Assembly (NCBI RefSeq): GCF_036321535.1
Contig: NC_087436.1
Location: 70,744,001-70,808,000 of the forward strand
Direction of reading: 5' to 3'
Length of the DNA stretch: 64,000 nt
Source of the DNA: Camelus dromedarius
Taxonomy: Eukaryota
Position 1 is the first letter of the stretch; each line of letters starts with the position of its first letter. The notes under the pieces were generated by a model, which saw only the letters and a list, made by a program, of their open reading frames with translations, did not search any database and was not told the DNA's origin. The translations under genes were made by a program, and so were the position numbers. This document shows, piece after piece, positions 1 to 64,000 of this stretch.

Positions 1-3000
1 TGTGTTTGTGTATGTACTCTGTGTGTGGCTGGTGCACATATGTGCAAAGTTAGAAAGAGACAGAGTGATGGTAGACAAAGGGCAAAGTTACCTAGCCTCC
101 TGTGTCAGCTTCTGTAAAACCCAAACCACGTATGAAAAAATCCATCAGAGGTCCAGGGGACATTATGCAAATGAGGGTAAATATGTTTTATTACCCAGTT
201 AGCTGTCACCATCACTGATACAATAACCCTTACTTACAATACAAAATCCGTAGGACTATTAATAGACCACTTACACATTTATAAAGTATGGGAGTGCCGA
301 TAGATCTGCGGAGGTATGTATGTATACCTCAACTATATTCACACTTGTTTTTAAGATTGAACGGCAGTTATTCTTTATGATTGGGACATTTAGAATATAT
401 AGGCCTATACATATGTGTATATGTGTATTTCAAAGTACCCCATATTGAAAATTAGAAAAAAAGAAAATTATATCCTTATTAACCAAATTTAGCATGTTAT
501 CTAAATGTAATGTTTTAGTAGGCTGCACTGTGAATTATGAATCTGCATTAAAAACAGCATTTTTAAATGCTGAATCCATAATTTTGGATTCCTATAACCA
601 TATTTGTGATATATCTTAACTAAGACAAGTTGATGAGTACTAGAAGCAGAATGAAACCACTTATTTTGGTTTCATAATGTGCACATATTGACTCCCACTC
701 ATCCTAATTAAATTATAATTCTGTTCTGCTGAAATTTTGATGATGAAAGTTTTGTTATTCTAAATTAGCTATTACTTTTATAGTATCTAGTAATCTGAAA
801 ACTTTGAATTTTATACAAATTAGACATAAATGGCCTACAATTTTTTTCCCTAAAATGAAAGTGGCAAATTAAATGGTATTTGTTAAAACCTCACATGCCA
901 AATTTTGTCATCATGATTGCATTAAAATGATTCCTCTGTATTACCTAGTTTTTCATTACCTTAATATAAAACTCCATAAGAATCTTCTCCTTTTCCTTTA
1001 CTGATGGAATCATCAATAAAATATTTTAAAACCATGAATAATAAGTTTAGCCTAACCTATGTTCTTGTTAAATTAAAGACACTTTTGTTCACTTCATAAA
1101 AGCTCCAGATGTAAAAATTTATTTTTCTGATCATGAATCAAGTATTTGAGGATTCATGCCCCCATGTTCCTTTTGAAGAATTCCTAAAGCAACTTAACTC
1201 AGTATTTCAACCTTTGAGTACATCTGAAAGCTATCTGCACCTTCATTTACTAGCCATATTCTGTGACAAAAGGTTGATATTCATGATATGAATGCAGAGT
1301 AGTACCTTATATTTGCTAAAAGGAACTGTTAGTAGCAAACCTTTTCAATATTTTGGGACCCAGGAAAGTATTTTAAAAATCATTTACTTTCAGAGGAACA
1401 CAAGTAGTTACCAAACAAACAAACCCCGAGGTCCATACAGAGCCACCGAATTATCTGTATTTTAACTGAATTCACTCATTGTTGAAGAACTAATCAGATT
1501 TTTGGGGTGGTTTTGTTTCTATGTAAACTGGACACAGAATACAACAGTAATTTTTTTTTACAAAGTGTTTCTCCTTGATGGAAATACGGAGATAAAAGAT
1601 GCAAGTTGTTAGAAGTAAAGGACTAAGTATACACTCAGAGTTGTTAACCAGAACCCTGTGGTTGTACAGACTTACTGTTGGAAGGAAAAGGATCACCAGG
1701 TCAAGGGTCTGCTTTATCAGAGCATAAAGGCCTGTGGTTTTGCATTTGAAAGAAAATCTCTTGGAGACACTTTTCCTTGATAAAAGTCAGTCTTCTTTAC
1801 TGTGCAAAACCACTACCGACTTCGAATACTTATTATTTTGTGTGCCATACTTGGTAGTTTTCTTGCCTCTTCTTCTGGTCAATCCGTGGAGTTGGGTGGG
1901 GAGATGGAGGAAGTCAGAGAAGTGGGAAGACAGCACCTTTTCTAATCAGCCCCCACCACCTCAAAGAACTGGGGCGGGGTGTTGGGGGGGAGAAAAAGAA
2001 TCGTCTGCCACCAGAAATTTAGTTTGTATATATTTTATGCACATGCACCAACACACACAGAGTAAATCTTTTATCAGCTATATATCGGTGTTTGATACAG
2101 AGAATGATTGTCTTCCAAGTTTTTGGTTCTTTTTTTAAAACTGTGTTAAGTACTTGAAATGTATTGACTGCTGACTATCTTTAAAAAAGCAAAACAAAAC
2201 GATTTAAGTTGTATTACAGAGGTTGACATTGTTCAGGGATGGGACAAAGCTTTCTTCAATCCTTTTCATACCACTTAATGATTTTGGTGCAGAACTTGAG
2301 ATTTTCTTATTTATTCTGTGATATTTCCCATCCACTCTTCACAGCATGAGCGTGAAGCTCAGAGCACCAAGTGGCTGAACACAACCAGAGGATATTTTGC
2401 TTGGGCCTTGGGAGTTTTCAGATAATGATTTCATTGAGCTTCATTGCAGCCTGAAATAAAACAAAAAAGTTTTGGGATATATGCTAACCAGTCAAGTTGT
2501 GTTTTGACCAGAAATTTGGATACGTTCTATTTCTCGGCTCATTTCTTTGTGCTCTATGGGTACATGCAAAAATCCTGAATTCTGTTTCTTAGGCAAATAT
2601 TGCAACTCAGGGCTAAAGTCATCCAGTGAAAATTTTAGAGCCAGAAGTAACTTTGTCCCAGCCCTACAATGTGAAAAGAATGAATAGTTGCCTCTTTTTA
2701 GCCATTTTCATGGCCGGTACATATCCGTACACATTACTTTTCAGAATCAATACGCACTTTCAGATAATCTTATTTTTATTCTCTTAAGTCTTTATTAACT
2801 TTGGAGAAATGATGCATCTTTTTATTTTAAATGAAGTAGATCAACATGGTGGAACAAAATGATAAAGAACAGAAAACATTTCAATATATTACTAATAATT
2901 TTTTTCCAATATAAAACCTAAAATTCCTATAACATTATAGTATTTTACAGTTTTATGAAGCTTTCTATTGTGACTTTTATGGAATTAAGAGATGAAGAAG

Positions 3001-3072
3001 ATGAGATATTTTAGCATTTATATTTTTCAAAATTAAATGTATACTTAAAATAAAGTAACTTTATGCATTTAT
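1..3072 (+). other. Probable distal 3' UTR of an unidentified + strand gene
   Basis: About 3 kb of AT/U-rich sequence with no recognisable TEs, ending in TGTA...AATAAA and a GT-rich downstream tract. Repeats begin right after it. Contains a Pumilio-type TGTATATA (2025-2032) and further AATAAA at 1015 and 2455. Confidence 0.6.
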
Positions 3073-17446: not shown

Positions 17447-17624
17447 GGGGGAGGTTGTATCTCAGCGGTAGAGTGTATGTTTGGCATGCCGAGGTCCTGG
17501 GTTCAATCCCCAGTACCTTCATAATATATATACATATCTATATAAAACAAATAAATAAACCGAATTACCTCCTCCATAAAAAAAAAACTGTCAAAAAATT
17601 TTTTTAAATCCTTAAAAAAAAAAG
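17447..17624 (+). mobile_element. tRNA-derived SINE (camelid Vic-1-like) with TSD
   Basis: gggggaggttgtatctcagcggtagag (A box)...ggttcaatccccagtacc (B box), AT-rich tail; TSD agagagtgtgta / agagagtatgta (17435-17446 / 17625-17636). Confidence 0.85.
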
Positions 17625-18928
17625 AGAGAGTATGTAAATCTCTGTGGCACAACTATCTGTAGCAATGATGTCCCTATCCTGACTTTGTGATTCTAGCTGA
17701 CTCTAATTATTTTGAGGGATGGGAGAAAGTTATTATTTTTAACATGCAAGTTTAAAATCTTTCAAATTAGTTTATATTTTAATATATCCCAGGAAAAATT
17801 GCAAACGATGAAAGTGATAAAAAACTGTAATTCAAAGAAGCTATCCTTAGGGACTTTGTTTATTCACAATGTATTCAGCCTTGATGTATTGAGTACCTAT
17901 TCCCAGGCATTGTGGTATATGCTTAATAACTATTGTTGAATGAAATAGCTGCTGTTCTTGCCCTCATGGGTCTTTCAGTCTGAAGGGAAAGATATTAAAA
18001 AGATGTCCATGTTAGATTCGCAGCTGCTTTCATTACTCCATTTATCTACTGCATAATGGTGCTTTTTTTTGGCTGTCTTCAGAAACTCACTTTTAAATTT
18101 AATTCAATTAAATTTAATTAAATATCTTAGAGATATCTTAGATATCTTAGAGTTGGTCAAAATAGAAATTTATCTATGCGGTCTGATTTGAGGGTTCTAC
18201 TGCTTTAAAATGTCTCTTCAATCCAGGTGTGTCACTGTCTAACTTTCCAGGGTTAGTAATCCTCTTGAAAATTCAGATATTCCTGGGCTTATTATAAACT
18301 GCTTCTTTGAAGAGTGTCTCCCTGTACGCCTGCACGTATCTTCCTCTGAGCCGAGCCACCCTCACAGGCGCACAAGCTGTGCCTTGGAGCATTCTTTCTG
18401 CCTCCCAGTCCTTCCCTTCTACCATCCTTTTAACTAAGGCCCATGTCAAATGCTACCTCTTCCTTTATGCTTTCCTTGATGTCGTTCTTGATAGTACTCT
18501 TATTTTTGTATCATTTATTTGATATCTAATATGTTTTGCCTTGTATTATATATAGCAAATAGGAAATTAACAGATAAGGTGTTTCTCTGTAACCGTGTAT
18601 AAGTGTCACCAGCACAGGGATTTTCCATATGTGAACATGGCTGCATAGGTCACCACTTTCCCCTTTGCCTCTCTCTGTCCAGGCCACTTGAGATGGCAGT
18701 TCCCTTGCTCTCTGCATACACACTGCTCAACCTGTCCCTGCTTCCCCTACACCCTGCTCTCATGGACATGCTCGCCCCCTGCCCCAGCTAGCGGTTGTTC
18801 TAACCCTTAAGCCAAAACTACTCCACCTGCTACTTTCTTAAAAGGAAACATCTGCCCTGGTTGTTAACCTGAGGGGCTGTGACGGGCGTGCCCCTCTGCT
18901 GGTTCCCCTGGTAACTAACGAGCCAACC

Positions 18929-18950
18929 TGACGTCGCTTCCCCCTATAAA
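18929..18950 (+). promoter_or_regulatory. LTR core promoter motifs (CRE-like TGACGTC plus TATAAA)
   Basis: Motifs seen directly at the expected U3 position; activity unknown. Confidence 0.45.
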
Positions 18951-18986
18951 TGGTGGCCTGCTTCTCTCCGGGGAGGTGGAGGTGGC

Positions 18987-19130
18987 GGCCCCGCCCTGCC
19001 GCCGGCCCCGCCCTGCCGCCGGCCCCGCCCTGCCGCCGGCCCCGCCCTGCCGCCGGCCCCGCCCTGCCGCCGGCCCCGCCCTGCCGCCGGCCCCGCCCTG
19101 CCGCCGGCCCCGCCCTGCCGCCGGCCCCGC
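18987..19130. repeat. Perfect 17-bp minisatellite (GGCCCCGCCCTGCCGCC) x ~8.5
   Basis: Eight identical units plus 8 nt, counted directly. Confidence 0.97.
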
Positions 19131-19281
19131 TGTGAGGGTGTCTCTCCAGGACCTTTCACCTCAGACATGTAAGACTCCCCTGTCCAGCAAACCACTGATG
19201 TCACTGTCTCTGGACTCCTTCTTCGGTCTCGAGGCTGGACAACTGCAAGGCTTGCAGGCCCGAGGGGTGTAGCCCAACAAC

Positions 19282-19299
19282 TGGTAAGCCAGCCAAGAA
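19282..19299 (+). promoter_or_regulatory. Degenerate primer-binding site, tRNA-Arg(ACG) type
   Basis: TGGTAAGCCAGCCAAGAA versus expected TGGCGAGCCAGCCAGGAG (14/18); starts 2 nt after the LTR end. Confidence 0.7.
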
Positions 19300-20365
19300 A
19301 CCGAGGAAAGTTCTGTGAGCACCGAGATGACGGACGGGAAATTGGGATGGGGAACGGAAAGTTGTAAAGGGTCATCCCGGGATGGCCATCCACTAGCAGG
19401 TGGGACCCAAAATCTCAGAGTCTCTTTCTAGTTTAAAGTAGCAGCCCCGTACTCGTGGCTCATCTGACTGCTCGGAGACGGCTGGTGAACACGGACAGAA
19501 TGCACGGGCCTGGGTTACCTGTTTAACATTTGGCTGTTACCTGATCACGTAAGATGAGCATACACCGGGCCCACTGCCCTTAAACAATCACAGGCACAGG
19601 CTTTAGGCACAGACTCAGGGACAGGCTTGTGAATCGGGTGTGTCCAGTTACCTGAAAGGGTTTGGCTGGGTCCTGTGGCAACAGCCAAGTACTGAGTACC
19701 CTTGGGCTTCTGGTCCCAGCTATGGAAGGGCACAGAGCAATGACAGTGTATGGAGCAACAGCTGTATGCAGTCTACAGTGTCTTAAAACACGTGGGAGAT
19801 ATTACAGAAGGCCGCCTACTGGAGAAGGGCACTATTATGTTAACTCTGTGGTCCGTTGTGGTACCATCCTTTCAGTATTCGGCAGCGGCTGCGGGGACTG
19901 AGGGTGGACAGGTAATGGTACTGCGGACTTGGACAAAAATCACATGCCCGGGTGGTGGTATCTTAGAACGCTGTTACTGCTTGTATTTTGCTTAATGGTC
20001 ATGATCTTCCCTTATGGTGCCTAGTAAACATCTTAACATTTCATCTCTAGTCTGAGCGGAGGGAATCTTTGCAGATTGGGCAACAGTGGTGGCTTCGTTG
20101 AGAAATAAGTCTGATGGCTGGGTATACAGCCAGAGGCCATGGTCGTCCTCCTCTGGACTTCCATAAAAGATTGACCTGATAAAGCCTGGCTCCAAAGCTT
20201 GCCCGACTCTTGACTTTTTAGCTGGTGTCTGTGTTGCATTCGTGGTATTTGGTTGCAGTGCATTTCCACCTACCCAGACCATAGGGATATCACAGAAGGC
20301 GGGATGGGAGTGGGGGGATCAAGAGGGTAAAAGTCGCTCGTGCAGCGTTTGTGTACAGGGTGGAG

Positions 20366-20704
20366 TGTATTATCAGGCCACTCAAGATGGCTTTTCTCTT
20401 ACTTTCTGCACATCTCCTGCTCAACCAGTCCCTGCTTCACTCACGTGACTGTTAGGGCTTAACTGGTTCCTGTTTATTGGTGAGCCCACCTGATGTCAAT
20501 TCTCCCCTGAGCAGTGAAGATTGCTGCCTTGTCCTGCCTGCCTTCTGCCATCCACAGCAGGGTGCTGCTCCAGGACCTCTCACTTCAGACTTTTCAGATC
20601 CCCTGTCCAGTAAACCACTGATGTGTCTGTCGCTGTTTCTGAGCTCCTCAGTCTGGAGGCTGGACAACTACAAGGCTTGCAGGCCTGTGGGGTGCAGCCC
20701 AACA
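20366..20704 (+). mobile_element. 3' LTR (339 bp)
   Basis: Roughly 80% identical by eye to the 5' LTR in aligned blocks; lacks two U3 segments and the VNTR; has AGTAAA poly(A)-signal variant. Confidence 0.85.
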
Positions 20705-21179
20705 GCCTCCTACAAATCACTGAAAAATAATAAGGATCAAAACCTCTGAAAATATTGTTTATGGTGAAAACAGACAGATATGATCTTCGATTATATAAAA
20801 GGACTGCAGGTCTTCAAGACTGAGTAGTCATCCCTTTGAAAAGTGTAGGTAAACAGCTGAGAAATACTAACAATGGAAAGCCCAGGGGTGGCAGCTTCTG
20901 GAGAAGGCTGCCCTGGAGTTACATTTTTTTGTGACCACAGAGGTGGGAATTGTATGACCTACACTGGTAGAATTACCCTGGAGCTGATTTGGTTCCAAGA
21001 CCTAGAAGATTCTGTCTCCTAAGGAATCACGCAGACAAGCCATATTTGCTGGAATCAGTTTGTCTCTGTAGCTGAGAAATAGGACAGACTTTTTATTATA
21101 CAACAATACAATCTATCCTTGGCCAGGAGACCACTGAAAACGGCTGGTCTAGCAAAATCCAAGGCATTCATGACAAGTA

Positions 21180-22400
21180 ATAAAAAGGAACTGGTATAAT
21201 TTAGATGCTAAGATACTCTAATAAAAGAAAATAGAGAAAGTAGCAATAAATCCTTAACAAAAGAACACTAACCATAAAAAAAAGTTAAATTGCAGATGAA
21301 AATTTTGATTAAATGTTTTTACTCTAGTGGAAAACCTAAGGAAAAATGGAAAAGCTCAGAAAAGGGGTGAGAAAATATGAAAAGATACAAAGTGAACTGA
21401 AAAAAACCCAGAGAAGAAAAACTGTTATAGAAATTAAAATACATTTGTAAAGAACACAAGGCAGAGTGGGCACAGCAGAAAACAATAAATAGAGACATGC
21501 AAAGTGAAATAAAATAAAATGAAATTAAGAACATATCAGATGAATGGAGAACTATAGGTATGCAAGAGAAATGGAAATCTAAGATATCTACAGTTGGAAC
21601 CAATTGAAACCTCTGAAAAAAGAAAATCAAAATAATAGACTAGAACAAATATTGCCTCATGCAAGCAGGAAAGCTTTCTTGAAATAAAAAAACCTGAATC
21701 TATACATTGGAAAAGTACATTATGGACCATGGAAATTGACTCAAAATAGCCAATACTGGAATGTACAGCTAGTGAGGTAGACTTGAAAGAAAAGTCCTTT
21801 TGATTTTTCCCATTTTCCTTTGGGAAATATGCCAGAAATGGTTTGTTACACAGAAGCTATTCTCTTGTGCACTGCAGGGTGCTGGAGGGTAGTATGCCGC
21901 ATTTTCCAGGCTCCATTGCCAGAAGTTTCAGAGTCTGCCAGTGGTTGCCCCTCGTGAGATTAGCAGGCAGGAAGCAGGTAGAAGCAGCAGCAGCCCTGCC
22001 AGGAGCACTGGGCTTCAGTAGCAACGTAGTGAGTGCTGGCTCCTGGGCTGTAGGTCAGCGCAGACCAGTAGGTCCAGTGGTATCCGTGGCAAGGACAGCT
22101 TTGTGGGCTCCCACAGGTCACTGCAGCTACCTACGGTTCCTGATCTCTGGATATCATCATCTAATTTCTTTTCCTCTTCCAGTACTGCCAACACTTTTGC
22201 AAGTGTTGCTTGAAACATCTAAAGCAGTTTCTGTTGTTCTAATTGGACTCTAATGGAAATAGCCTGGCAGGAAAACAAACAAAACATATTAAATCACTTA
22301 GAAGACTAATATAAGGCTGACCTTAGATTTTGTCATAGCAACATTCAACACCAGAAGGCAGAGAAGCAATACTCGTAAGACCCTCAAGGAAATGCAAAAA
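21180..22400 (+). mobile_element. Old L1 ORF1-region remnant with an LTR-like insert at ~21830-22250
   Basis: A-rich ORF1-like text (ctaagatatctacagttgga, atagcaacattcaacaccagaaggcag). Confidence 0.45.
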
Positions 22401-24418: not shown

Positions 24419-24518
24419 TCCCAAACACCTTTTCCCACAACACCCCTTACCCACCCCTTCTCCAACTACCATACTTTTTCTTTGACTTGTTAGAATTTCT
24501 ACTGAGAAATGGAATTTT
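24419..24518 (+). repeat. 100-bp dispersed direct repeat, copy 1
   Basis: 97/100 identical to 25968-26067. Confidence 0.92.
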
Positions 24519-25259: not shown

Positions 25260-25824
25260 TTTTGCAGGAGAATGAAGGGCGGGGAGGGGGGCGTTGACGA
25301 GAGAGGATGGTCATGTCCTAGGTCTCAGACTAGTCCATGGGACTACGGGCTGCCAAGTGAGGATCCCTGACTTTGTGCAGGAAAGAATTCAAGAGCGAGC
25401 CATACTAAATTGAAAGCAAGTTTATTTAGAGAGATACACATTCCGCAGACAGAATGCAATTCTCCTCAGAAGGGAGAGCAGCTCTAGGTGTAGGGGTGGT
25501 TAGTTTTTATGGGCTGGGTAATTTCATATGCTAACAAGCAGGAGGATTATTCCAACTATTTTGGGAAAGGGGTGGGGATTTCCAGGAAATGGGCCACAGA
25601 CCACTTTTTGGCCTTTTATGGTCAGCCTTGGACCAGTCTTGGAACCTGGGGAGGGGTGTCATTTAGCATGCTAATGTATTACAATGATCATGTAATGAGA
25701 CCCAAGGTCTACTGGAATCTTCTGCCATCTTGGGCCTAGTTGGTTCTAACCAATATTTCTCCTAATCTCAGTGGCTGTGTTGTTCTTTTAATGGTTGTGC
25801 CCCGCCCCCTTCCCTCCTGTCTCA
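25260..25824 (-). mobile_element. ERV1-type solo LTR
   Basis: Starts TGAGACAGG on the minus strand, has AATAAA on minus, and TSD CCAT (25256-59 / 25825-28); related to 51285-51887. Confidence 0.8.
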
Positions 25825-25967
25825 CCATCTTTGATTATTCCAAAGAGCAAACACAAGTTCCAGACTTCTTAGTCCACAAATCTACTAGTGTACATGGGCA
25901 TCTAAATACAGATCTTGAAAATTTCCAAGCTTGTTGCCATTATTAGAGGCTTCCTCTTTGCCCATCT

Positions 25968-26067
25968 TCCCAAACACCTTTTCCCACAACACCCCTTACC
26001 CACCCCCTCTCCAACCACCATACTTTTTCTTTGACTTGTTAGAATTTCTACTGAGAAATAGAATTTT
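25968..26067 (+). repeat. 100-bp dispersed direct repeat, copy 2
   Basis: 97/100 identical to 24419-24518. Confidence 0.92.
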
Positions 26068-31600: not shown

Positions 31601-33506
31601 AACTCAGCTTTAATGAAAAAAAAATTCTGACACTTCCTGGAAAATATCTGATAAAACTTCTATTAAACAAAGGGTACTTTGGTTTTGCATTAATTCACAA
31701 AACTGACCTCCTCTTACAGATTTGGGATTTTCTCAATAAAAATCCACGTAAGGTTATTATGCTCTGAATTTACCCAAGTAAAGCCGCTCTTCCTCCATTA
31801 GGTTATCACCATTGCATGAAATTTACCACATATCTTTTACATTATGTTTTTATACTTCCTTGTTTGCAGACTTTAAAAGATATTTCAAAAGTGGCTTCTG
31901 TTGTGCGTTTGTTGTGTGATTTATGGTAAAGAGATGATCATTTTCTAGGAAAGCATGTTAATATTAACCTCCACTCTTTGAAGGAAATGTTGATTTAGCA
32001 AAGGTGCTTTCCTAATGACTTACCTGGCTTGACATTCCATTGTGATTTCACGTAGCTCTCTGGAAGTCACACACTATTTATCAGCAAGTTTTGTAATTTA
32101 TTCTGCTGCTCCTGAGTGGACAAGAAACATCTCTAAAGAGACTTTGACTTTGGTAGTTTTACTTCCTTTAAATACCATTCCTCTCAACTATTATTCCTTC
32201 TAATGTCTCTTTTTTGAAGAAAAGAATGTCAGAGTGTTACCTAGTGAAAGCTTTCAAGAATAAATTGTACGAATACAAGGAAAAAACTGTGTTCGATCTT
32301 ATCTGAAGACAGATGGAGAAGATCCAGAGTTTAAATTATGGAATGAGAGGATAAGGATTGGCTTTAAAGCAGTAAAAGTTTGTTTTTGTGATGTTTTTGT
32401 TTGCCATGGATGCCTTCAAGAACTGCTGAAAGCTATGAATCCATTCCCTAGAGAAATCTACTCATTAATATATACAGAATTCTTCATGGCATTTCAGAGA
32501 GTTCACAAACATGCTGAAACTTTTCTACAAATTCTACATTAAAAAAACAGTTGCTCTAAAGAACAGTTTCCCAACAATAAAGATTGTTCAATAATTGACT
32601 AAGCTGCTCTCCATGAAGATTTATTCAAATGGGAAGTATGGTCTTAGTTGTTTTACTTCTGAACTGACTTAATGTCTGTTTATTGAAATGCTGAGGTACT
32701 AAAGCCGCTTTCTGCTCTGTGAATCTTTAAAAGATACGTGTTCTGAAAAAATGTGTGTGCATTCATATTGCACATACTGAAACTGAGGGAAGCATCTGCT
32801 CTGTCTGAAATAGAACCTGCTATAATGGGATATGCATCATAATTTTGGGAGGAGAATCAATTTACAAAGAGTTGACTACATAGGATTGGATGGAAAATTA
32901 AATTTAGGTTCATTAATTATAAAAGTCAATGCACTGAAATGTTCTAAGTATTATCTTTTAATATCATAAATAAAGTTGAGATGAGTTACTGTTTCACATA
33001 AAATAATAAGTCAAGACCACAAAAATGGCCAGGGAAAATTTATTGCTACTTTATTCCAAACATCTCAGCAGGATGTGACCAGAAGCCTTCTGTTGGTGGT
33101 AATGAATTTGTACATGGTTTACCAGAGTGCTTAATTCACAAGGACATCTCAACCCTTTTAAGAATACATATTTTTAAAAATATGAATAGACATTGTGGTA
33201 GACAAAGGATATTTGATGTTTTTCTTCACTAGTATATGTTTAGAACGTAATATATGCTGCATATAACTGTTTACTTTTAATTCTCAGATGAGAGAAGACT
33301 GATATTTTCAGAGAATTTTTGAAAGATTTGAAGTCAATATGTCCCTCTTGGTAAGTGTTTTCAGAGTATTTTGATTGAAGCCCAGAATAAGATATCTGTA
33401 TGACCTATTATATGCTACATATTCATAAAAACAAAATTTTCACAAAATATCCTTATGCTTAATATCTGTAATATTTAGGTAAATATTTAAACTACAACCC
33501 ACTTTA

Positions 33507-35447: not shown

Positions 35448-35552
35448 AATTTTTTATTTGCTAATTTTTTTAAACAGAGGTACTGCAGATTGAAGCCAGG
35501 TCTTCACACATGCTAATCATGTGCTCTACCACTGAGCTATCTCCCTCCACCC
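35448..35552 (-). mobile_element. tRNA-derived SINE
   Basis: Reverse complement gggtggagggagatagctcagtggtagagcacatg...ggcttcaatctgcagtacc; TSD aagaatttt (35439-47 / 35553-61). Confidence 0.85.
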
Positions 35553-35709: not shown

Positions 35710-35942
35710 AGATGAGAGGCTGCGACATCTGTCACCCCATTGATCGCCAGGGTTAATTCGGCTGATCTGTCTGGCTGGGCGTGTGTCTTCTTCCTCCCTC
35801 ACCACTCCATGTGCGTCCCTCATGAAGCTGTGCACTGGGTCGAAGAGGGTGACCTTCCCGGATAGAGGAGAACCATTCTTCTTGGTCAAGGGTATGCAAA
35901 TAGCTATGGTCCCCTGCCAGAGCCTCCAAGCAAACTCTCAAG
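35710..35942 (+). pseudogene. RN7SK (pseudogene): 7SK snRNA retropseudogene, 3'-truncated and tailless
   Basis: gctgcgacatctgtcaccccattgatcgccagggtt...ctccatgtgcgtccctc...ggtcgaagagg...ggtcaagggtat...ctctcaag matches the 5' ~240 nt of 7SK; TSD aagctac(c/a)atgaca. Confidence 0.93.
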
Positions 35943-38900
35943 CTACAATGACAGAGGTAAGGAGTTGCTACAGAGACCATACACCATAGGTATGGACCAC
36001 AAAACCTAAAATATTTACTGTCTGACCTTTTACAGGAAATCATGGCTTACCCTTGCATTTTCCATTCTGCTCCAACCAACCTACTCCCTTTTGGGAACAT
36101 GTTGACTTGCAAGAGAGGAGTAGCAGATATGGTGGCTGTCCATAAATTAAAGTATTTACCCTGATTTTAGATAAGCTGAAGAAATAAATCTCTGTTCGAC
36201 TGTAAACTAATTCTACTGTTTTTTATTATTAATCCTTATTATTTCTGTTCAATTTATTGTGCTGGCCAAAAGTACAGGTAATTACACATTTCTGTAATTA
36301 ACAGCCATCTTTCAAATAAAAGGACTTTTTTTCATCTTAGTGGAACATTGTTTTAGTATTTTCTTTAGGAATTGTCTAATTTCTACATCTTGACCTCTAC
36401 ATCTTGACCCATGTAAGTAAAATAATGTTATGTTTTAATCTAGGATTGTTCCCAGTCAGTCCTTCACATCAGGTCTGTAGAGAGTAAAGAGATGGGAGGG
36501 TCTGAATAAGGTCATCAGTCCTGAAACAGGGATTCAGCGTCTTGACACTTGGAATGTGGTTTCAAGCTCATCATACAATGGAGAGAAAGAGGGTAAATGA
36601 GGATGTGTAAGCAGATGGAGCGAGACTAAAAGGCTAAAAGTCTGGGATGATTAGAGAGAGTTTGAACACTGATACCCAATTCATCTTCATAAACTCCTGT
36701 AAAAATTTGGAGCTCTGGCTTTTACATGAGGAAATAAACTGTGCAAAGCAGTGTGTTCACTCAAGGTCACTATCTGGCCCTGCTCCTCCTGAGTTCTTGG
36801 TTCCTGAATCCCACGGCAGGCTTCCCCTCTGCTATGCATGTCTGTCACGGAATTCATAATTCTTTCAAGACGTCAGGAGGGTTGGAGGACTTTGATGAAA
36901 TCATTAGGAGAGCAGCATAAGCCTGTGGTTATAGAGTATCTGTTTCCCTACAAATATTGTGGAAACTTGGCCGCCCAAGTTTGCTGCTGAGAGAGAGCCG
37001 GAGACTGCCAGCATGTGTTTAATTATGCTTCAAACCTGTCGTCTGCATCTTTCCCCCTCCCCGCTCCCCATTTTGAGTTGAAGCACGTGACAAGTATGAC
37101 TTGTTATGCGATAATCTTGAGTATTCACAAGAAAGGTCACTAAAGATCAGGGGAGATCTGCTATTGGACGAAACAGGATATTTAAAGATTTTAAGTCACA
37201 TCTAAATGGGTTGCATCAGGGCAGGAAAGTTAGCACTTGCTTGTATTTTCTTCCTGTGTATTCCTACACTCTGCCATAAAGTTCCATCTTGTTACTCTAG
37301 CTTTTTAAAAAAGGATTGAGGGCCAGAACTTTTAATATTGGTTTGGGGTAATTTTGCCTTGACAGAGGAACCAGTTCCAGCACTATTTTGGAGGAGCGAG
37401 CCTGAGTGTGACCAAGCGTCAGGACTTCTTCTCCCTCCGTGGTTGGATGGGAAAAGCCAGGTCTTGAGTAGGCAGCAACCTTGATTGACTTCTAACCCCA
37501 GTTTGGGGGTCTTGCTCCCATACTTGACTCTCTGTTATCCTTCATGTCAACATGGTAGTTTTACAAAAATCGTTGAAAATGTACCTCTTGCAGAAAATGT
37601 GACTAGGGGAGAACTAGCTCCCCAAGTATCTCTGCTATGGGGATTCTACTCGGCAGAGATGAAATGTCCAACTGTTTGACTGCTCTAGCCTAAGTGGTTG
37701 TTGATTAACTCATCCCCTTTGTTCGTTATGATGATCAACAGGGAAACGGGTACAAGGGGAGGGAAAAAAAGATGGAAACTAATATTTATCATGTAGCTAT
37801 CTACTAAGTTATGTGCTTTAAGTGCATTTTTTATTTTAAAGTTTGGAGCAACTTCCAAATGTGACCAGCCTCTTGGAAGTAGCCCTATTGGATGTTATTA
37901 ACCATACTTTATTGATGAAAAAAACTAGTTCTCAGGTTAAGCATCTTGCCAAGATTACATGTCAGTGGCCAGCGTGTATGTGTGAATTCAGTGTCTGTTT
38001 CCACCAGACCACATGCACTCCCAAATCTGGGAGGAAGCAAGAAAAATCATCTCCACTTTCTGAGAGCAGTAGTAGTAATTACATTACTGGGTTGCTGTCA
38101 TATACAGAGGATATTATCCAACACTAGTGTATTTACTCATTTATAGAGAAATTGTATTAGTGTTTCTGTTGTCTTGTTCTGCACTGATTCAAGTAGAAAG
38201 GTAGAATCCAAGGCTTTTTTTTTTTTTGAATAATTGAGTACTGTCCTATTTAAGTCCTACTTGTACATGGCATTGCCTGTTTATTAGTAACCATCAGTCA
38301 TTCCAGAACTTTCTAGTGTATCCTGACCCTTTTCTGTTTTATGGTTAGTTGTCTGGTATATGGATCTGAATTTTCAAGATAGGCTTTTATTATTTTCCAG
38401 ACCATCATGTTCAAACATTTAACTGTTCATTGTTTCAGATGCTGTCCTCTGAGGTTCCTTCTGTTCTGTCTACTCCACCTTCTTCACAGATTGTCTACAA
38501 CATAAATGTGCCTTCAGAATGTGAGGAAGAAAGCATGAAGTCAAGAAAGAATAAAGGAAAAAAATGGTCTGCCCACTGGCAGAGTATAAAAAGCAGCACA
38601 GATTGTGGTAAGAAGGAACACATTTGTATTGCAGAGTAATCTTTGAAGCTTAGACTTGAAGCCTGGTTGTTATTGAACCCAGCATGTGGTTACTTTCCAT
38701 CTATCATGCTAGATAGTGATTTAGATAACCTTTAATGGCCCCCTCTTTTTCTGTTGATGACTTATTTCTTCTTTATCTGTGTTAATTAAATATGCCATTT
38801 AAGTAAATATCTCAACTGATATTAAAAATTGATGACCAAATGAAAGTGATCCAGCACCCGAATGATTACTAACTAGTAATCTCACTACTCTTCTTGAATA

Positions 38901-47454: not shown

Positions 47455-47973
47455 TGTTGACTGAAATAAAGTCACACAATGTGAGAGTTGCGAGTTAGGT
47501 TTTATTTGGGGCAAAATGAGGACTATAGCCCAAGAGACAGCATCTCTGATAGCTCTGAGGAACTGCTCCGAAGTGACAAGGGAGAACAACGGTATTATCT
47601 ATGATTTTAATGAAGAGGGTGCGTGCAGTCAAGCACACATTAAGAGAGGCTTGCTGCTAGTCATGAGGAGTGGATGTCACCATTAATGGAGTTAGTGCTT
47701 TTCTAGATATGAGGAGATGCAAGAATTGGGGCTCATAAAATCTTCTCCTGAAAATATCTAACTATCTGTTAGACCTGTCCTGCCAGTTTTCCCAGAGCAT
47801 GGAGTGCCGCATTCCATTCCTGATCTCCACCCTAAGCTCCTTTCAGGGTGTGCTGGAGGTCAATGGCTGCAGCAGCTCATGATTTAATCCAAGCAGAGAT
47901 AGATGGCAAGTGCCAGCGTGATCCAATCCTTGTAGAGGCAGATGGCATGGCAAGTGCCAATTTGTAGTTGGCA
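47455..47973 (-). mobile_element. ERV1-type solo LTR
   Basis: TG...CA ends; TSD ttat/ttgt; closely related to 54108-54602. Confidence 0.8.
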
Positions 47974-48045
47974 TTGTCATGCCAAATATAACATATAGGT
48001 GAGTTGTAGTCATAGAAAGCTAGAGGCCTTCTCTGAAGAGTACTA

Positions 48046-49776
48046 TAGCCAGTTCTGCTGTAACAGGATATATACTGTTGACTTTAAAAAAAAAGGCACA
48101 ACCTAAAAGTTGAGAGTTACATTTTATTTGGTGGACAAAACTGAGGGCTTAAGCCCAGAAGACAGCCTCTGATAGCTCTGAGGGACTGCTCTGAAGGGGT
48201 TAGGGAGAAGCCAGGATAGGAGTTTTGCAACGAAAATCAGGTAGCCAGAACATGAAAGATTACTGTTAAACAAAGCCAGGCATCTCAAGTCAATGGATGT
48301 AGTGCCTGTCTGTGTATGGGAGGATGCAAGAGCTGGGCTCACTGATGTCCACCTTAACTGTCTAGGGCCAGTCTCCTGCTTTTCCTCTGGGTGTGCAGTC
48401 AGGGTGGCTGCAGCGGCTGCTGGGCTGATGGCTACAATAGCCTTTGATAACTGACAGGGCAGGCAACAGTTTTCATCCACAATACATGCCTCAAAATGGA
48501 AGTGACAGGAAAATTGTGCAATTAAAAAATAGAGACTATGGGAAAAATGGGTCACAACACTCAAAAACTTCATCAGTTTGTATCTATAAAAGAGCCTTAT
48601 AAAAATGGTAGCATGGTTACACATGTTAAATGGTTCAGAAATACACAAGTACTACAATAAATACGGCACTTATTCTTAAGAAGGACCTGAAGTTTGTTTG
48701 TGGAAGTGGGAGAGGAAAAGCTGTGACTTGTAGGTTGTTGCAACGTGGTGGAAGGACCCTATCTGAAGTCAGATGGAAAGTTTGGGGAAGTGTGGCTCAT
48801 TGTGTTTGAGCCAAACATCACAGTTACGATTCCCTACCTTAAATCCAGGGACGTTTTTCTGCCTTTGAGGTGTAGGTCCTTCCAGACGTACAATATGCTA
48901 GATAGCTGCTTCTTCAAAATTAAAAATTTGGTCTAAAGTATAGCGTTTTTCTTCACTTAACTTCTATATCACTGCTGGAAATTTTTTTGTGCCTTTCTTA
49001 TTTGTCCTTGTGGCTCCATCCAACAGCTGAAGGCTTGGAAATTTTGGCTACGTTTGAAACCATAGACCACGCCACTGTGATTTAAAAGGAGTGATCTGAA
49101 AGAGGTCACTTTCAGGGTTTGGTGATTTCTGTTGAAGGTCTTTATTTATGAATAGTGCTTTCTCTTTGATTGTGAGAAAAATTATTTCTGATTTTCTTTT
49201 ATTTGGTCTTCAATCCACATGCTTAACAATCTTCCTATTTTCTGCTGCTTTAGGCCTTATTGACTTTTCAGCATTTGAAATGTTTCAACCATAAAGCTTT
49301 TGTTTCCCAGTTTTGTCTCTGTTGCTCTGGAAATATCACATGTTCTCCCATTTCTTTCAAAGTGCTTTATCATTTCAAGATTCTCTTCAGTCCTTAAAGC
49401 TTTTCTTTTACACGCACAGGTTGTAATTTTAAAGCATTTAGACATATCTAAGATAATAAATGGCTTTTAAAAAGCAAGTTTACAAGTGCAAAAGAATAAT
49501 AATAAAAAAAACTTGCATTTTAACACATGCATTAACAGAAGTAGTTAATAGATGTTTAAGGTGTGTGTGTGAATGCATTTTGTGCTTTCTGACTCAGTTC
49601 AGCTGGGTGCAACTTTTTTACCTGCATATAGTTTTTTTTTTTTTTTTTTTTTGGCAGGTAAAATCATGCATAAGTAAAATGTGAAAGTTACATTATGTTC
49701 AACTTGTTCCTTATTATATCAATCACCTTGGAATAAATTTGCACTTTCAAAATAAGCATTATAGAAGAACTGACTA
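48046..49776 (-). mobile_element. Tigger (Tc1/mariner, pogo-type) DNA transposon relic
   Basis: TIRs tagccagttctgctgtaa / ttatagaagaactgacta (15/18); minus ORF 49257-49445 KRKALRTEENLEMIKHFERNGRTCDISRA resembles the CENP-B/pogo N-terminal HTH. Confidence 0.7.
48076..48481 (-). mobile_element. ERV1-type solo LTR inserted near the Tigger TIR
   Basis: TGTTGAC...CCACA; perfect TSD ATAC (48072-75 / 48482-85). Confidence 0.8.
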
Positions 49777-53805: not shown

Positions 53806-54722
53806 TGTCGCTCAGCATCCAGTTTTACAAGGGTTAAGTTGCAACCCACTGCCATGAGGGGGATTCAGGGTGAAAAAAAAAGATGAAACATTCTGTGCTT
53901 TGGATAAAGGATCTGTAGGTAGTTAAGGTGTATATCTCAGGAAGGATTTCAATTGCCCCAGATTCTTGCATTTTCTCATACATAGAGAAGCACAAAAATT
54001 AACTTGAGATATTTGTTCTTTGTAATTAGCAGTTATCTTTCATCAAGATGTATGCTTGACTATCTGTATTTCCTAGCAAAAAAATTTGCATATATACCAG
54101 TTCCTCCTGTCAACTGAAATAAAATCACACAATGTGAGAGTTGTGGGCTAAGTTTTGTTGGGGGCAAAATGAGGACTATAGTCCGGGAGACAGCATCCCA
54201 GAGAGTTCTGAGAGGCAGAGAGAGAACTCAATATTATATATGACTTCAGTGAAGGGGGGACATGCAGTCGAGCACACATTTAGGCAGAGGCTTGCTGCTA
54301 GTCACAAGGAGCAGATGTCACCATTGAAGATTTTAGTGCTTTTCTAGATATGAGGAGATGCAAGAATTGGGGTCATAAAATCTTCTCCTGAAAATATCTA
54401 ACTATCTGAAGGCCTGTTCAGCCAGTGTTCCCAGAGCACGGAGTGCCTCATTTCTGACCTCCACTCTGAACTCCTTTCAGGGTGTGCTGGAGGTCAGCGG
54501 CTGCAGCAGCTCATGGTTTAATCCAAGCAGAGGTAGATGGCAAGTGCCAATGTGCTCCAACCCTTGCAGAGGCAGATGGCAAGTGCCAATTTTTAGTTAG
54601 CATTCCTCTGCCTCTTCAGAACAGTTTCTCAGAGCCATCTCCTGGGCTGTCGTCCTCAGTAAGACCTTGAATAAAACTTAAACTCACAACTCTCATGCTG
54701 TGTGTTTTTCTTTAAGTCAGCA
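53806..54722 (+). mobile_element. Solo LTR hosting a nested antisense LTR
   Basis: TG start, TATA-like catatatacc, AATAAA at ~54670, ending aagtcagca; sequence is continuous once 54108-54602 is removed. Confidence 0.7.
54108..54602 (-). mobile_element. ERV1-type solo LTR nested in another LTR
   Basis: Homologous to 47455-47973; TSD ctcc/ttcc. Confidence 0.8.
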
Positions 54723-60508: not shown

Positions 60509-62720
60509 AGGTGCTGTCAGTAGACCACCTGGATCTCACTGCAGCTTCTGTGGATTAAACAAGCCTACTATTTCTGCCTAACTGAGTGAGGGAGCATGTT
60601 TGACCTCTCCCTGGGGATGAGCCTAAAGGGGGCTGAGAGTTAAGTCCTATTAGCCAACAAACAATGAGAGTCAGGAGTTTGTGGACAGATACTTCAACTT
60701 CTTTGTCCCTTGACAGGACACTTCTGAGGTATATTTTATAGTGTTTCAGAGAAGCTCAGTTGCTCACTGTGAAAACCTGCACTTTAACATTCTGTTTATT
60801 TGATTTCCCCCATTCTCTTTCACAATTCCCACCACCTTTAACATGCTTCCTAGAAGTATTTCCCAAGAGAATGATTTGCATCCAAATCCTTGACTCAGAC
60901 TCTAAAACAATTGGTATGAAAAGTGTCCTAGAAAAAAGACCCTTAGAATGAGAGTCTGGAATTTGATCATTTTCTGCATCAGATAAAAATAAAGATCCCA
61001 TTGTTGATCCTAACTAGGGTGGTAATCTTGGCATAATATTTGCCATTATGAGGCTTCCAGGAGCCCTAAATGTTGGCAGAAGCAGCCCCTCTCTCTGACT
61101 ATCCTCTCCTGTTGTCTGAAAACTGTGCAAAGGCTTGCTTACCTGAGGACTTCTGAGATGATACTTGCCTTCCTCAACATCTGCTTTCACCTTTCTCATT
61201 GTTTCTAGGCCAATAGCTGGGGTCCAGTCTTAGAGTGAAAGGAAGAAGGAAGTACAGTCTCTGTGATTGAAGGAAGTAGATTATTACTTAAAAAGCTGTA
61301 AAATATGGCTACCACTGACAGGAGCTGGGAGAGCGAGTATGGGAATAGTGTATGTTGGGGGCAGAGGCCAAATATAAAACTGGATGAAGAGTTTATTGCT
61401 ATGGAGATACTTTCTCATGATTCAGGATTTAACATACTGGCAATAACACTTGGATGGTCCTAATACACTATTCCTTTCACTCCTTGAAATATGGATATAA
61501 CAATGCCACAGTCAAAGAGGTGGAGATGCTGTAACTGCTTTGGTAGACAACTGAGCAAGGGATCAGAAGGCTCAAGAGACATGGCCATGCTAGAATAAAT
61601 TTATTACATAAACAGCTGACTGTGTTCCCCTGTAGAAGGCAGGGGACACTTCCGTCACTTAAGCAATGAAGAATGCACTGGTGTGGGGGGCACTGGCGTC
61701 ACTGAGAAGCTCAGTGACGGCTGTCCTCTGTAAGCAAGTTGACAATAGAAGTTGCTACTGTGGAGCTAACTCTGTAGTATCAGTGGGGTGATAGGATTCC
61801 AGAATAGAGGAGACCCAACGGTGGCACTTAACCACCAGAGGCAAGGTGGTCATAATTACTGGAATGGGCAGCACATTCACATGCACCTAGGGGCCTTGAT
61901 GTTATAGGGATCTGTGACGATGGCTAATGGACTATGGATGCTTAGACCAATGGAGATGGGCAGCCAATGAGAGGGCTGCTCGAATTATAAAACCAAATCA
62001 TTTTAAGACCTTGTAAGTAAAGGACTGAAGTCAACTTCTTCAAAGCAAAGAGGAGGCCATTCCACCTGATGAAGAACTATATATTACCACAACATATATT
62101 TCCAGAAGCTGGTTACCAGTGTATTACCAAGGGGCTCTATAGCCACCTACCAATGCACTGTATACTGGGGTTGTGGAAACACTCAGATCTTGTGAGGATT
62201 ATTGGAATAAGGAGGCTGAGCCAGTGCTAATATCAGAGGCCTCAAAATGCTGTCATGGCACCCTTGTTAGAGCTGCTCAGTAGAAGGGCCAAGAAACAAA
62301 TGAAGTCCTGGCTCACATCAACTCACAGTAGGCCCAGCCCACGACCTGTCTGTGGTCATTTCTTCAGTTCCTGAGTGCGTAATTGTGGTAGCTATCCTCG
62401 GGAGATGCTAGAACCATTACTTTGGTTCCCGCCCCTGTGGAGTAAGAGCTAGCCTGTTAAGAAAGGCCCCGTGAGATTCTCTGAAATCGCCACCCACCTC
62501 CCACTCCCACCCTACACTCTGGTTAAGGTAGTAAATCATGGTAGTGCCACAGGAGCCCATCCCAGGAAGAAATGCTGGAATCCTACAAAAGGCTAATCAG
62601 ATGGAGGGGCAGTAGACTTCATCACATCAAAGTTGAATCCATCCACATCGTCTTTATGGCAAAACAGATGGATCGTGGCACATGCAGGTGACCTACGACG
62701 TGCAGCAGTGCTAGCCTGTG
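60509..62720 (+). mobile_element. Ancient ERVL (LTR16/HERV16-like): LTR ~60509-60910 plus degraded gag/pro/pol
   Basis: Gag-like NIKLDEEFIAMEILSHDSGFNILA and AMKNALVWGALASLRSSVTAVLC; RT-like KTDGSWHMQV at ~62660. Confidence 0.75.
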
Positions 62721-64000
62721 CTGGTCATTATTGTTGTTTTTATAACAGTTATCCTGGAAGCTAAATGAAGAAACTGTTTCCAGGAAAAAGAAGTGAGCCT
62801 CTACGTCACGTGTTGCAGATACGTCAATTGCAACGAGAACTGAAACTTGGCTTTTCGAGTTAACAGCATGAAGGTAATTGTCGACCTCAGCAAGAGTTAC
62901 TTGGATAAAGCAGTGGTAGCAAAAGCCCAGTTGGGTAGAAGTCAAGGGACAACGAAGGAGAATAATGGGAAAAGAAACACAGGCGATTCTTCTGGGGAAT
63001 TTATAAGGAGGAGAAAAGCTAGAGCAGAAGTGAGGTCAAGAGAGGCTTAGATTTCCGTGGGAGAAATTGCAGCATTTTTATATAGATGGGAAATACACGG
63101 GAAAGATGACAAATTTAGGTGGGTCAGGGGAGAATTGCAGGAGCCATTTCCTTGAGTAGGTGAAAGTGTTGGAATCCAGTGCATAAGTGGAGGGATTCAA
63201 TTTTTAAAAAATTGCTTTTGAATAGATGAGGCAGTGTGTGAATGAGGGAAATAAATAAAAAGTGCTCTCTTCGGATAACTGGTTAGGTTAGCAGCAGGTA
63301 ATTGTGGCTTCAGAGAGAACTGTGCTTAGGGAATTTTTTAAAAATTAGGATACCTCAAGTATCTTTTCATTCATAATGTTCAAGTTGTGAGAGTTGTAGA
63401 TGGAGTGCTCTAATTATGTCTGTTGCCAACTTTGACAACTGGCTTAGCTTTTTCCATTCACTAAATGCAAAATGTAGGTACTCTTACCCTTCAGATTATT
63501 TTTCACTTCTCTCTAAAGAATATTCTGAGGGAAACTGCTATGATATTCTTAAAGTTCAGATGAGATAAGAGACTAATATTATTCCACATATATCTGAGTG
63601 TTTGTTAACCATAACATAACGTAACCTCAAGTTATGTTTTCATACTCCCTTATTATTAGTTTTTAGACTATGTCTCCAATTTCCAAGAGCAAATCTCTGG
63701 GAAGTGGTAAGGGCCTTGGTAGTTTTGTGTAAGTTACAAGTATATGGGAAAAGAGGAAACCTTGGGAAGACTGAGAAACAGAGAGTTTTTCGGAGTGAAG
63801 AAACTCACAAGTCACCTCGCTCAGCCCCTGAGCTTCCAGATGAGGTGAGTCAGAGAGATTAAGTGGTCCCCCCTAAATGACATGATTAAATAATGGCAGA
63901 GCCAGAGTGAGAGGCGAGGTGACCTCACTCCTAATCTGTGCTCTTTCTGCCGTACCTTCCAGATTGTCAAAGGGAAGAAAGCTAATGTGTCAAATTTAAG

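What the first reader, a model, noticed from the sequence alone, without database searches (positions are those of the whole stretch)
18880..19300. ERV 5' LTR rebuilt as a CpG-island-like promoter and first exon, with a splice donor created from the PBS
Seen: CRE-like TGACGTC, TATAAA (18945) and a CpG-dense VNTR, with many CpGs retained from ~18880 to 19500 in otherwise CpG-depleted DNA. The 3' LTR lacks the TATA and has TGATGTC instead of TGACGTC. The PBS changed from TGGCGAGCC to TGGTAAGCC, giving a near-consensus donor CTG|GTAAGC (GT at 19284); a second, weaker CAT|GTAAGA at ~19169 is also specific to the 5' LTR. Known: LTR exaptation as lncRNA promoters is common in mammals. Inference: this may be an active lineage-specific TSS with exon 1 at ~18975-19283.
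Basis: partly seen in the sequence, partly recalled or inferred. Interest (0 to 1): 0.7.

Follow-up and report, generated by a model that had tools for sequence, protein, structure and literature searches.

The report
Old camelid provirus, CpG-retaining 5' LTR
A 2-kb broken retrovirus relic in a camel-family genome has kept the promoter and CpG letters of its front repeat while its back repeat decayed, so it may still start a non-coding RNA in reproductive tissue, a common kind of event that is unproven here.

Summary
The element is a 2,033-bp non-coding LTR provirus (18672-20704, 5-bp target duplication, LTRs about 80% alike, PBS 14/18 to tRNA-Arg(ACG)) in a camelid, about 15.6 kb past a 3' UTR I recall as SLC4A4's.

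'Rebuilt' is the wrong word: the TATA box, CRE-like site and CpGs look retained in the 5' LTR and lost in the 3' LTR. Only the perfect 17-bp GC-box array, two donor-like sites and possibly a lost poly(A) hexamer look new. The array supplies 26 of 46 CpGs, but the CpG excess survives its removal (CpG/GpC 0.79 against 0.15 in local LTR controls), which points to long germline hypomethylation.

The PBS donor is real as sequence but only modestly above chance. Four RNA-Seq runs of one reproductive-tract study hold 20-40% of the exon's sampled words. No read alignment was obtained, so strand, start and splicing are unshown; DNA carry-over and read-through remain possible.

Verdict: probably a retained LTR promoter (about 0.5); donor use about 0.35. 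A new member of a well-known kind. The scan had not noted it on other DNA.

The parts
18667..18671 (+). left target-site duplication GCCTC
   Evidence: identical 5-mer at 20705-20709, both abutting the LTR ends set by homology; chance about 0.001
18672..19279 (+). 5' LTR, 608 bp including the array; ends in CA, begins TC where the 3' LTR begins TG
   Evidence: homologous blocks with 20366-20704
18929..18935 (+). CRE-like TGACGTC; 3' LTR has TGATGTC at 20491
18945..18950 (+). TATA box, inside a 24-nt segment flanked by GCTTC repeats (18936-18940, 18960-18964) that the 3' LTR lacks
18986..19130 (+). 17-bp x 8.5 perfect minisatellite, 94% GC, 26 CpG, one CCGCCC GC-box per full unit, G-quadruplex-type pattern on the - strand; expansion of a short LTR segment
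19136..19149 (+). acceptor-like CTCTCCAG| inside the 5' LTR; would define a 134-nt internal exon 19150-19283 under the read-through rival
   Evidence: sequence only; similar site in the 3' LTR at 20573
19166..19174 (+). second donor-like CAT|GTAAGA, absent from the 3' LTR
   Evidence: 7 of 9 consensus matches
19186..19191 (+). AGCAAA where the 3' LTR has AGTAAA (20609-20614, a variant poly(A) hexamer, recalled): possible loss of the 5' LTR's termination signal
   Evidence: aligned block 19176-19198/20599-20621, 22 of 23 identical
19282..19299 (+). eroded primer-binding site, 2 nt after the LTR; overlaps donor CTG|GTAAGC (GT at 19284)
   Evidence: TGG plus 11 of 15 matches to the 3' end of an animal-type tRNA-Arg(acg) gene in L006; mismatches at PBS positions 4, 5, 15, 18
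19280..19570 (+). CpG-retaining proviral leader (14 CpG, o/e 0.70), with a third donor-like CAC|GTAAGA at GT 19549
19280..20365 (+). internal region, 1,086 bp, no recognisable gag/pol/env
   Evidence: 10 of 28 stop-free frames scanned against Pfam, none near a curated cut-off
20357..20365 (+). purine-rich tract before the 3' LTR (PPT-like)
20366..20704 (+). 3' LTR, 339 bp, TG...CA, 2 CpG (o/e 0.09), several segments missing relative to the 5' LTR
20705..20709 (+). right target-site duplication GCCTC

Best explanation
An old (roughly 22-58 million years by LTR divergence, depending on rate), internally deleted, non-coding provirus whose 5' LTR kept its native promoter and has stayed largely unmethylated in the germline or early embryo, while the distal U3 and the 3' LTR were methylated and decayed. 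Shown: the anatomy and the CpG asymmetry. Inferred: erosion of the PBS removed a target for PBS-directed silencing; a recently expanded or homogenised array of Sp1/KLF-type GC boxes now reinforces the unmethylated state; polymerase starts either about 25-30 nt after the TATA box or just downstream of the array, passes the weakened poly(A) hexamer, and makes a non-coding RNA mainly in reproductive tissue. Least certain step: exon 1 ends at the PBS-derived donor 19283/19284 and splices to cryptic downstream exons (about 0.35 on its own). No protein is expected: the only ATGs in the exon are at 19167 (stop follows) and 19198 (24 codons).
For: CpG/GpC 23/29 in promoter+R-U5+leader without the array against 30/201 in pooled LTR-type controls of the window, Fisher p 1.6e-6 (region chosen after seeing the data). 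With the array collapsed to one unit the best 500-bp window still has 24 CpG against at most 14 in 1224 windows outside. In anchored LTR blocks 5 CpG kept in the 5' LTR face TG/CA and 0 the reverse (p 0.0625); a control LTR pair of the window gives 3 against 4. None of the array's 26 CpGs is deaminated. TpG+CpA excess is low in promoter and leader (0.96, 1.09) and high in the 3' LTR (1.60). Four RNA-Seq runs of one 2025 study labelled 'reproductive system metagenome' hold 0.40, 0.36, 0.36, 0.20 of 25 sampled words of 18940-19300; an RNA covering only 19131-19283 would give 0.37-0.53. Precedent: HERV-E 5' LTRs used as placental promoters are unmethylated there (PMC1950553, abstract and passages); changes in the first nine PBS bases abolish ZNF506 repression of PBS-Pro (PMC10602909, passages); a mutated PBS evades tRF silencing (PMC7472051, passages).
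Against: The RNA signal is unaligned, from one study, in contigs: no strand, start, junction or species. It is well below the 0.78-0.84 expected for a full 18975-19283 exon, though 94%-GC repeat drop-out could explain that. One pair of overlapping reads gives a block of words, so DNA carry-over cannot be excluded, and the number of non-holding runs in that study is unknown. No other RNA study came up as a holder; 9 of 9 small RNA-guess rows hold 0.00 (no proof of absence). The paired CpG asymmetry is not significant alone (p 0.0625), R-U5 itself has o/e 0.26, and one aligned site goes the other way in the global alignment. Retroviral leaders may start CpG-rich, and no family copy was available as baseline. 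The donor has 7 of 9 consensus matches, a level met by 52 of 3516 GT sites in the window. No repressor of an Arg PBS is described in the passages I read.
Confidence: 0.48

Rival explanations
1. Neutral relic with a minisatellite-made CpG island: the array expanded by slippage, is kept perfect by turnover and creates a small hypomethylated patch whose shore slows CpG decay nearby; the donor is a chance product of PBS decay and there is no stable transcript.
For: 26 of 46 CpGs are in the array and the island misses the usual o/e 0.6-0.65 threshold without it. All four PBS changes are transitions. Donor-like sites of this quality are common. Hypomethylated islands lower methylation up to 2 kb away (PMC4509998, passages). 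RNA evidence is weak.
Against: A 100%-identical array is probably young, whereas the CpG retention in the leader records a long period; retention is lopsided (downstream 1.4 kb, but o/e 0.15 in U3 100-300 bp upstream), which fits a directional promoter better than a symmetric shore; the only RNA holders are reproductive-tract runs.
Confidence: 0.3
2. Internal exon of a read-through transcript: polymerase running on from the upstream + strand gene (3' UTR ending near 3070, recalled as SLC4A4) uses the acceptor-like site at 19149 and the PBS donor, giving a 134-nt exonised piece 19150-19283; the LTR promoter is not the start.
For: Expected word share for 19150-19283 is 0.31-0.45, bracketing the observed 0.36-0.40. 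The element is in the same orientation and about 15.6 kb downstream. An earlier AI note places an SLC4A4 intron 158 kb before the window (unchecked).
Against: Transcription through a CpG-rich region in oocytes tends to methylate it (PMC6102241, abstract and passages), which would erase CpGs; the acceptor has a short pyrimidine tract; read-through does not explain TATA/CRE retention.
Confidence: 0.1
3. The open, CpG-rich LTR works as an enhancer or bidirectional element, with short unspliced or antisense RNAs (towards the upstream gene's 3' end) rather than a spliced sense transcript.
For: CpG retention needs only open chromatin; the GC-box array lies downstream of the TATA box, an odd place for a TATA promoter's activators; RNA strand is unknown.
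Against: Retention extends downstream, not upstream; three donor-like GTAAG and a weakened poly(A) hexamer lie on the sense strand, the pattern that favours sense elongation (recalled).
Confidence: 0.12
4. The two LTRs come from different subfamilies (recombinant or converted provirus), so '5'-specific' features are family differences, not post-insertion events. Not exclusive of the others.
For: The 3' LTR is 339 bp against about 480 bp for the 5' LTR without extra array units, with seven gaps in the middle of the alignment.
Against: Intact 5-bp target duplication; 3' LTR CpG loss (o/e 0.09) matches local old LTRs; the TATA gap is flanked by a 5-bp direct repeat as in a simple deletion.
Confidence: 0.12

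Closest known systems
HERV-E 5' LTR alternative promoters (LTR-MID1, LTR-EBR/EDNRB, LTR-PTN; PMC1950553, abstract and passages)
   Same: 5' LTR of a class-I-type provirus as promoter; CpGs unmethylated where active; first exon made of proviral sequence
   Different: those are primate, experimentally shown and drive coding genes; they are methylated in blood; that their donors lie in the leader beyond the PBS is recalled, not checked; here the donor overlaps the PBS, the provirus is a 2-kb deletion derivative, and no target gene is known
LTR-initiated transcription units of oocytes (PMC6102241, abstract and passages: 3384 mouse, 1494 rat, 1056 human)
   Same: lineage-restricted LTR start, intergenic or chimeric RNA, reproductive tissue
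   Different: defined from RNA-seq assemblies, which is exactly what is missing here; most rodent cases use MaLR LTRs
Short non-autonomous ERV1 elements of camelids (PMC8605555, passages)
   Same: short LTR element with no internal ORF or domain; the paper reports large clusters of these in alpaca
   Different: no sequence comparison was possible, so family identity is untested; PBS is not discussed in the main text (0 hits); supplements not read
GC-box promoter minisatellites and SVA-type VNTR CpG islands (recalled; e.g. the CSTB dodecamer)
   Same: perfect GC-rich tandem array in a promoter or 5' exon that creates CpG density and G4 potential
   Different: here the unit grew from an LTR R-region segment at one locus; length polymorphism untested

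Membership tests
LTR provirus (ERV) | two homologous direct LTRs | tested here: met
   203 of 251 identical in anchored blocks, 261 of 332 in the global alignment
LTR provirus (ERV) | target-site duplication | tested here: met
   GCCTC at 18667 and 20705
LTR provirus (ERV) | TG...CA LTR ends | tested here: inconclusive
   3' LTR TG...CA; 5' LTR ends CA but begins TC
LTR provirus (ERV) | tRNA PBS 2-4 nt after the 5' LTR | tested here: met
   2 nt after; TGG plus 11 of 15 to a tRNA-Arg(acg) gene; of 5 places in the window with 11 of 15 only this one follows TGG; the reference tRNA is an animal-type gene from an unrelated contig, not a camelid one
LTR provirus (ERV) | polypurine tract before the 3' LTR | tested here: met
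   8 of 9 purines at 20357-20365; short
autonomous ERV | gag/pol/env coding capacity | tested here: not met
   1,086-bp internal region; no Pfam match near cut-off in 10 of 28 frames scanned
ERV1 / class I | pol phylogeny or match to a curated ERV1 repeat family | not testable with these tools
   no pol, no repeat library, no host genome; ERV1 label rests on recalled resemblance (Arg PBS, LTR layout)
CpG island (sequence definition, thresholds recalled: 500 bp, GC 55%, o/e 0.65) | composition | tested here: met
   621 bp, GC 0.65, o/e 0.70 with the array; not met without it (0.54-0.59)
CpG island (functional) | unmethylated in germline | not testable with these tools
   only indirect CpG-retention evidence
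LTR-initiated transcript / exapted LTR promoter | RNA from the locus | tested here: inconclusive
   4 runs of one study hold 0.20-0.40 of 25 words, unaligned
LTR-initiated transcript / exapted LTR promoter | capped 5' ends inside the LTR, no upstream read-through | not testable with these tools
   the holding runs are kept as contigs, which cannot show a start or strand
LTR-initiated transcript / exapted LTR promoter | junction reads from the donor to a downstream exon | not tested
   no read or contig alignment was obtained; open
LTR-initiated transcript / exapted LTR promoter | conservation or phenotype showing host function | not testable with these tools
   no orthologous camelid or artiodactyl sequence reachable

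The most novel reading that the evidence does not exclude
The same few PBS changes did two things at once: they freed the 5' LTR from PBS-directed silencing (tRNA fragments or a KRAB zinc-finger protein) and created the exon-1 donor, after which poly(A)-signal loss and a GC-box array locked in a camelid-specific, reproductive-tissue promoter. Because an Arg(ACG) PBS has a CpG right after TGG, ordinary methyl-CpG decay would predispose this whole class of proviruses to gain a donor exactly at the LTR edge: a general, testable route to LTR first exons. I found no paper stating this (listings only).
Probability: 0.15. Interest if true: 0.6.

Novelty: new member of a known kind. Interest (0 to 1): 0.32.

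Why it matters
As a single locus it would be one more of thousands of LTR-started RNAs per mammal, in an under-annotated lineage, with no known target gene. It matters more as a compact natural experiment: the two LTRs of one insertion record opposite methylation histories, and the locus stacks four changes (PBS erosion, donor gain, poly(A) hexamer change, GC-box array) whose order can be read by comparing camels, llamas and alpacas. The general idea that Arg-primed proviruses gain a donor from PBS CpG decay can be tested at once in human, cattle or pig long-read data. If the array varies in length it would be a candidate expression variant next to a bicarbonate transporter gene in a desert-adapted group; that link is speculation.

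Tried and rejected
Family copies to tally PBS forms: LTR-end+PBS pattern gave 0 hits in viral contigs and 4 in metagenome contigs, all 4 microbial-like chance matches (CpG o/e 0.99-1.25, no LTR homology beyond the pattern); two LTR-internal patterns gave 0 in 3 scans. No other copy of this LTR family in the window. No host genome is held. tRNA-end pattern: 1 viral and 4 genome-contig hits, of which 1 of 5 was a tRNA-Arg(acg) and 1 of 5 a bacterial tRNA-Lys; 3 had no tRNA; my first register comparison was off by one and was redone. Coding remnant: none. Structured RNA: 19131-19330 folds no better than shuffles (z -0.24); Rfam finds nothing in the element. RNA run X4 (0.20, 5 words) is at the tool's no-evidence limit, and rows X14-X22 (0.00) and raw-read rows X11-X13 were not aligned: none is used as evidence. 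A Poisson estimate of DNA carry-over (0.04-0.05 per word if a run were all host DNA; assumes 150-nt reads, 2.1 Gb and a two-copy threshold, recalled) looked favourable but I discount it, because words come in blocks and the study's run count is unknown. I first took the 63-nt exon-like piece at 33288-33350 for an SLC4A4 5' exon from memory and dropped that: the window lies after that gene's 3' end. Splice strength was scored only as consensus matches; no MaxEntScan value is given. Ten paper searches showed no description of this locus or of a PBS-derived donor in their listings; the library lacks most subscription papers, and no supplements were read (the camelid repeat library of PMC8605555 could name the family).

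Full report
Setting. The window is CpG-depleted mammalian DNA. A tRNA-headed SINE and the L1 ends look camelid by recall, and earlier AI notes on the same genome say camelid. The first 3 kb look like the end of a long 3' UTR that I recall as SLC4A4's; a note placing an SLC4A4 intron 158 kb earlier agrees (unchecked). No host genome is held.

Anatomy. Two homologous direct repeats bound a 2,033-bp element: 5' LTR 18672-19279 and 3' LTR 20366-20704, with GCCTC duplicated on both sides, a PBS 2 nt after the 5' LTR and a short purine tract before the 3' LTR. The 1,086-bp interior has no recognisable coding remnant (10 of 28 frames scanned). The LTRs are 81% identical over 251 anchored sites and 79% over 332 globally aligned sites (K2P 0.225-0.255). 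That gives about 22-26 million years at the camel rate quoted in PMC8605555 (2.5e-8 per generation, 5 years; passage seen; my arithmetic) or 51-58 million years at a recalled 2.2e-9 per year. Either predates the camel-llama split as I recall it (about 16-17 million years), so the insertion should be shared across camelids.

Observation check. All motifs and coordinates are right. The array is 17 bp x 8.5, 100% identical, with one CCGCCC box per full unit. Six non-RNA-labelled rows from three studies hold 0.96 of the sampled words, so the sequence is real.

CpG signal. The array supplies 26 of 46 CpGs; without it o/e falls from 0.70 to 0.53-0.54. The rest is still exceptional: 23 CpG to 29 GpC against 30 to 201 in pooled LTR-type controls (p 1.6e-6, post hoc); the leader's 13 CpG in 279 bp is matched by 0 of 3068 outside windows; and with one unit kept the best 500-bp window has 24 CpG against at most 14 elsewhere. 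In anchored blocks 5 CpGs of the 5' LTR face TG/CA in the 3' LTR and 0 the reverse (p 0.0625); the global alignment shows one reverse case; a control LTR pair gives 3 against 4. Distal U3 (0.15) and the 3' LTR (0.09) are as depleted as old repeats. Inference: the proximal 5' LTR and leader escaped germline methylation for a long time. Limits: R-U5 is only 0.26, there is a trough at 19571-19780, and no family copy was available to show the starting level.

Retained, not rebuilt. The 3' LTR lacks 24 nt that in the 5' LTR lie between two GCTTC copies and contain the TATA box, and its TGATGTC is a CpG-decay form of the 5' TGACGTC. These are best read as native LTR promoter parts lost from the 3' copy.

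PBS and donor. An animal-type tRNA-Arg(acg) gene from a public contig (L006) matches the PBS at TGG plus 11 of 15; the mismatches are at positions 4, 5, 15 and 18, all transitions. Positions 4-5 form the donor. Whether this form is family-wide is untested: no copies were found. The donor has 7 of 9 consensus matches, as do the sites at 19169 and 19549; 52 of 3516 GT sites reach that level, and G|GTAAG has P about 0.055 per 330 bp. Three GTAAG in about 585 bp against 0.49 expected is P about 0.014 (my arithmetic, post hoc).

RNA. Of 22 rows listed, 10 hold the stretch and 4 of these are on record as RNA, all from one study labelled reproductive system, with shares 0.40, 0.36, 0.36, 0.20 of 25 words. 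Expected shares: full exon 18975-19283 0.78-0.84; 19131-19283 0.37-0.53; 19150-19283 0.31-0.45; an exon ending at 19168 0.28-0.50. The data therefore fit a short exon after the array, an internal exon, a full exon with GC drop-out, a related species with substitutions, or DNA carry-over. No alignment was obtained, so strand, start and junction are open. No other RNA study appeared as a holder, which argues against broad expression but is no proof.

Mechanism. Best reading (0.48): retained LTR promoter, unmethylated in germline or early embryo, making a non-coding RNA in reproductive tissue. Shown: anatomy, CpG asymmetry, PBS erosion. Inferred: release from PBS-directed silencing (precedent for PBS-Pro only, PMC10602909 passages; review PMC11359688 passages), protection by GC boxes (the Macleod 1994 and Brandeis 1994 titles were seen only in reference lists of PMC1950553 and PMC3384319), start site, and donor use (about 0.35). 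Rivals: neutral array-made island (0.30; shore effect in PMC4509998, passages), enhancer or bidirectional element (0.12), read-through internal exon (0.10), and, not exclusive, LTRs of different subfamilies (0.12).

Comparison. It works like HERV-E 5' LTR promoters (PMC1950553) and oocyte LTR-initiated units (PMC6102241). It is a member of LTR proviruses by five structural tests (one inconclusive), not of autonomous ERVs; ERV1 is a recalled label; membership of LTR-initiated transcripts is unshown. Earlier scan notes showed nothing at this place, by sequence or by words. Ten paper searches showed no account of this locus or of a PBS-derived donor in their listings; seven papers were read as passages only (PMC8605555, PMC10602909, PMC7472051, PMC11359688, PMC6102241, PMC1950553, PMC4509998) plus PMC3384319 for three passages; no supplements.

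Verdict. Observation confirmed, interpretation partly supported. New member of a known kind; interest 0.32. The bold reading, that PBS decay couples escape from silencing to donor birth as a general route for Arg-primed proviruses, has probability about 0.15 and interest 0.6.

Noticed in passing
window 1-3070: Long AT-rich stretch ending in AATAAA that I recall as the end of the SLC4A4 3' UTR (+ strand); not tool-verified, but consistent with AI notes placing an SLC4A4 intron 158 kb and PRR27/ODAM 973 kb before the window.
   Followed up: partly
window 33288-33350: 63-nt exon-like piece with a pyrimidine-rich acceptor and a TTG|GTAAGT donor in unique AT-rich DNA; a candidate exon 2 by sequence only.
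   Followed up: partly
window 21800-22260: GC-richer old LTR-like segment (MaLR/MLT1-type by recall) with a strong acceptor at 22182 (branch-like CTAAT, 89% pyrimidine); its 149-aa frame has no Pfam match.
   Followed up: partly
window 35710-36033: Full-length 7SK RNA retrocopy, 164 bits.
   Followed up: no
window 17449-17600: tRNA-headed SINE (Rfam tRNA 33 bits), resembling the camelid SINE by recall; a reverse copy seems to lie near 35450-35550.
   Followed up: no
window 24419-24518 and 25968-26067: 100-bp direct duplicate, 97% identical, 1,549 bp apart, enclosing an LTR-like element near 25340-25830; too long and too similar for a target duplication, suggesting a recent local duplication or conversion.
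   Followed up: no
window 47455-47975, 48073-48480, 54108-54700: Two or three copies of another LTR-like family, 82-87% alike; used as CpG controls.
   Followed up: partly
window 19571-19780: A CpG-poor trough (1 CpG, o/e 0.07) inside the provirus between two CpG-retaining parts (leader 0.70, 19781-20365 0.52); unexplained, possibly a separate inserted piece.
   Followed up: no
window 62250-63000: Second mild CpG peak (up to 14 per 500 bp) in an ERVL/MaLR-like internal region (label recalled).
   Followed up: no
L006 100-172: An animal-type tRNA-Arg(acg) gene on a 1.9-kb contig filed under a gammaproteobacterial MAG, probably host contamination.
   Followed up: no
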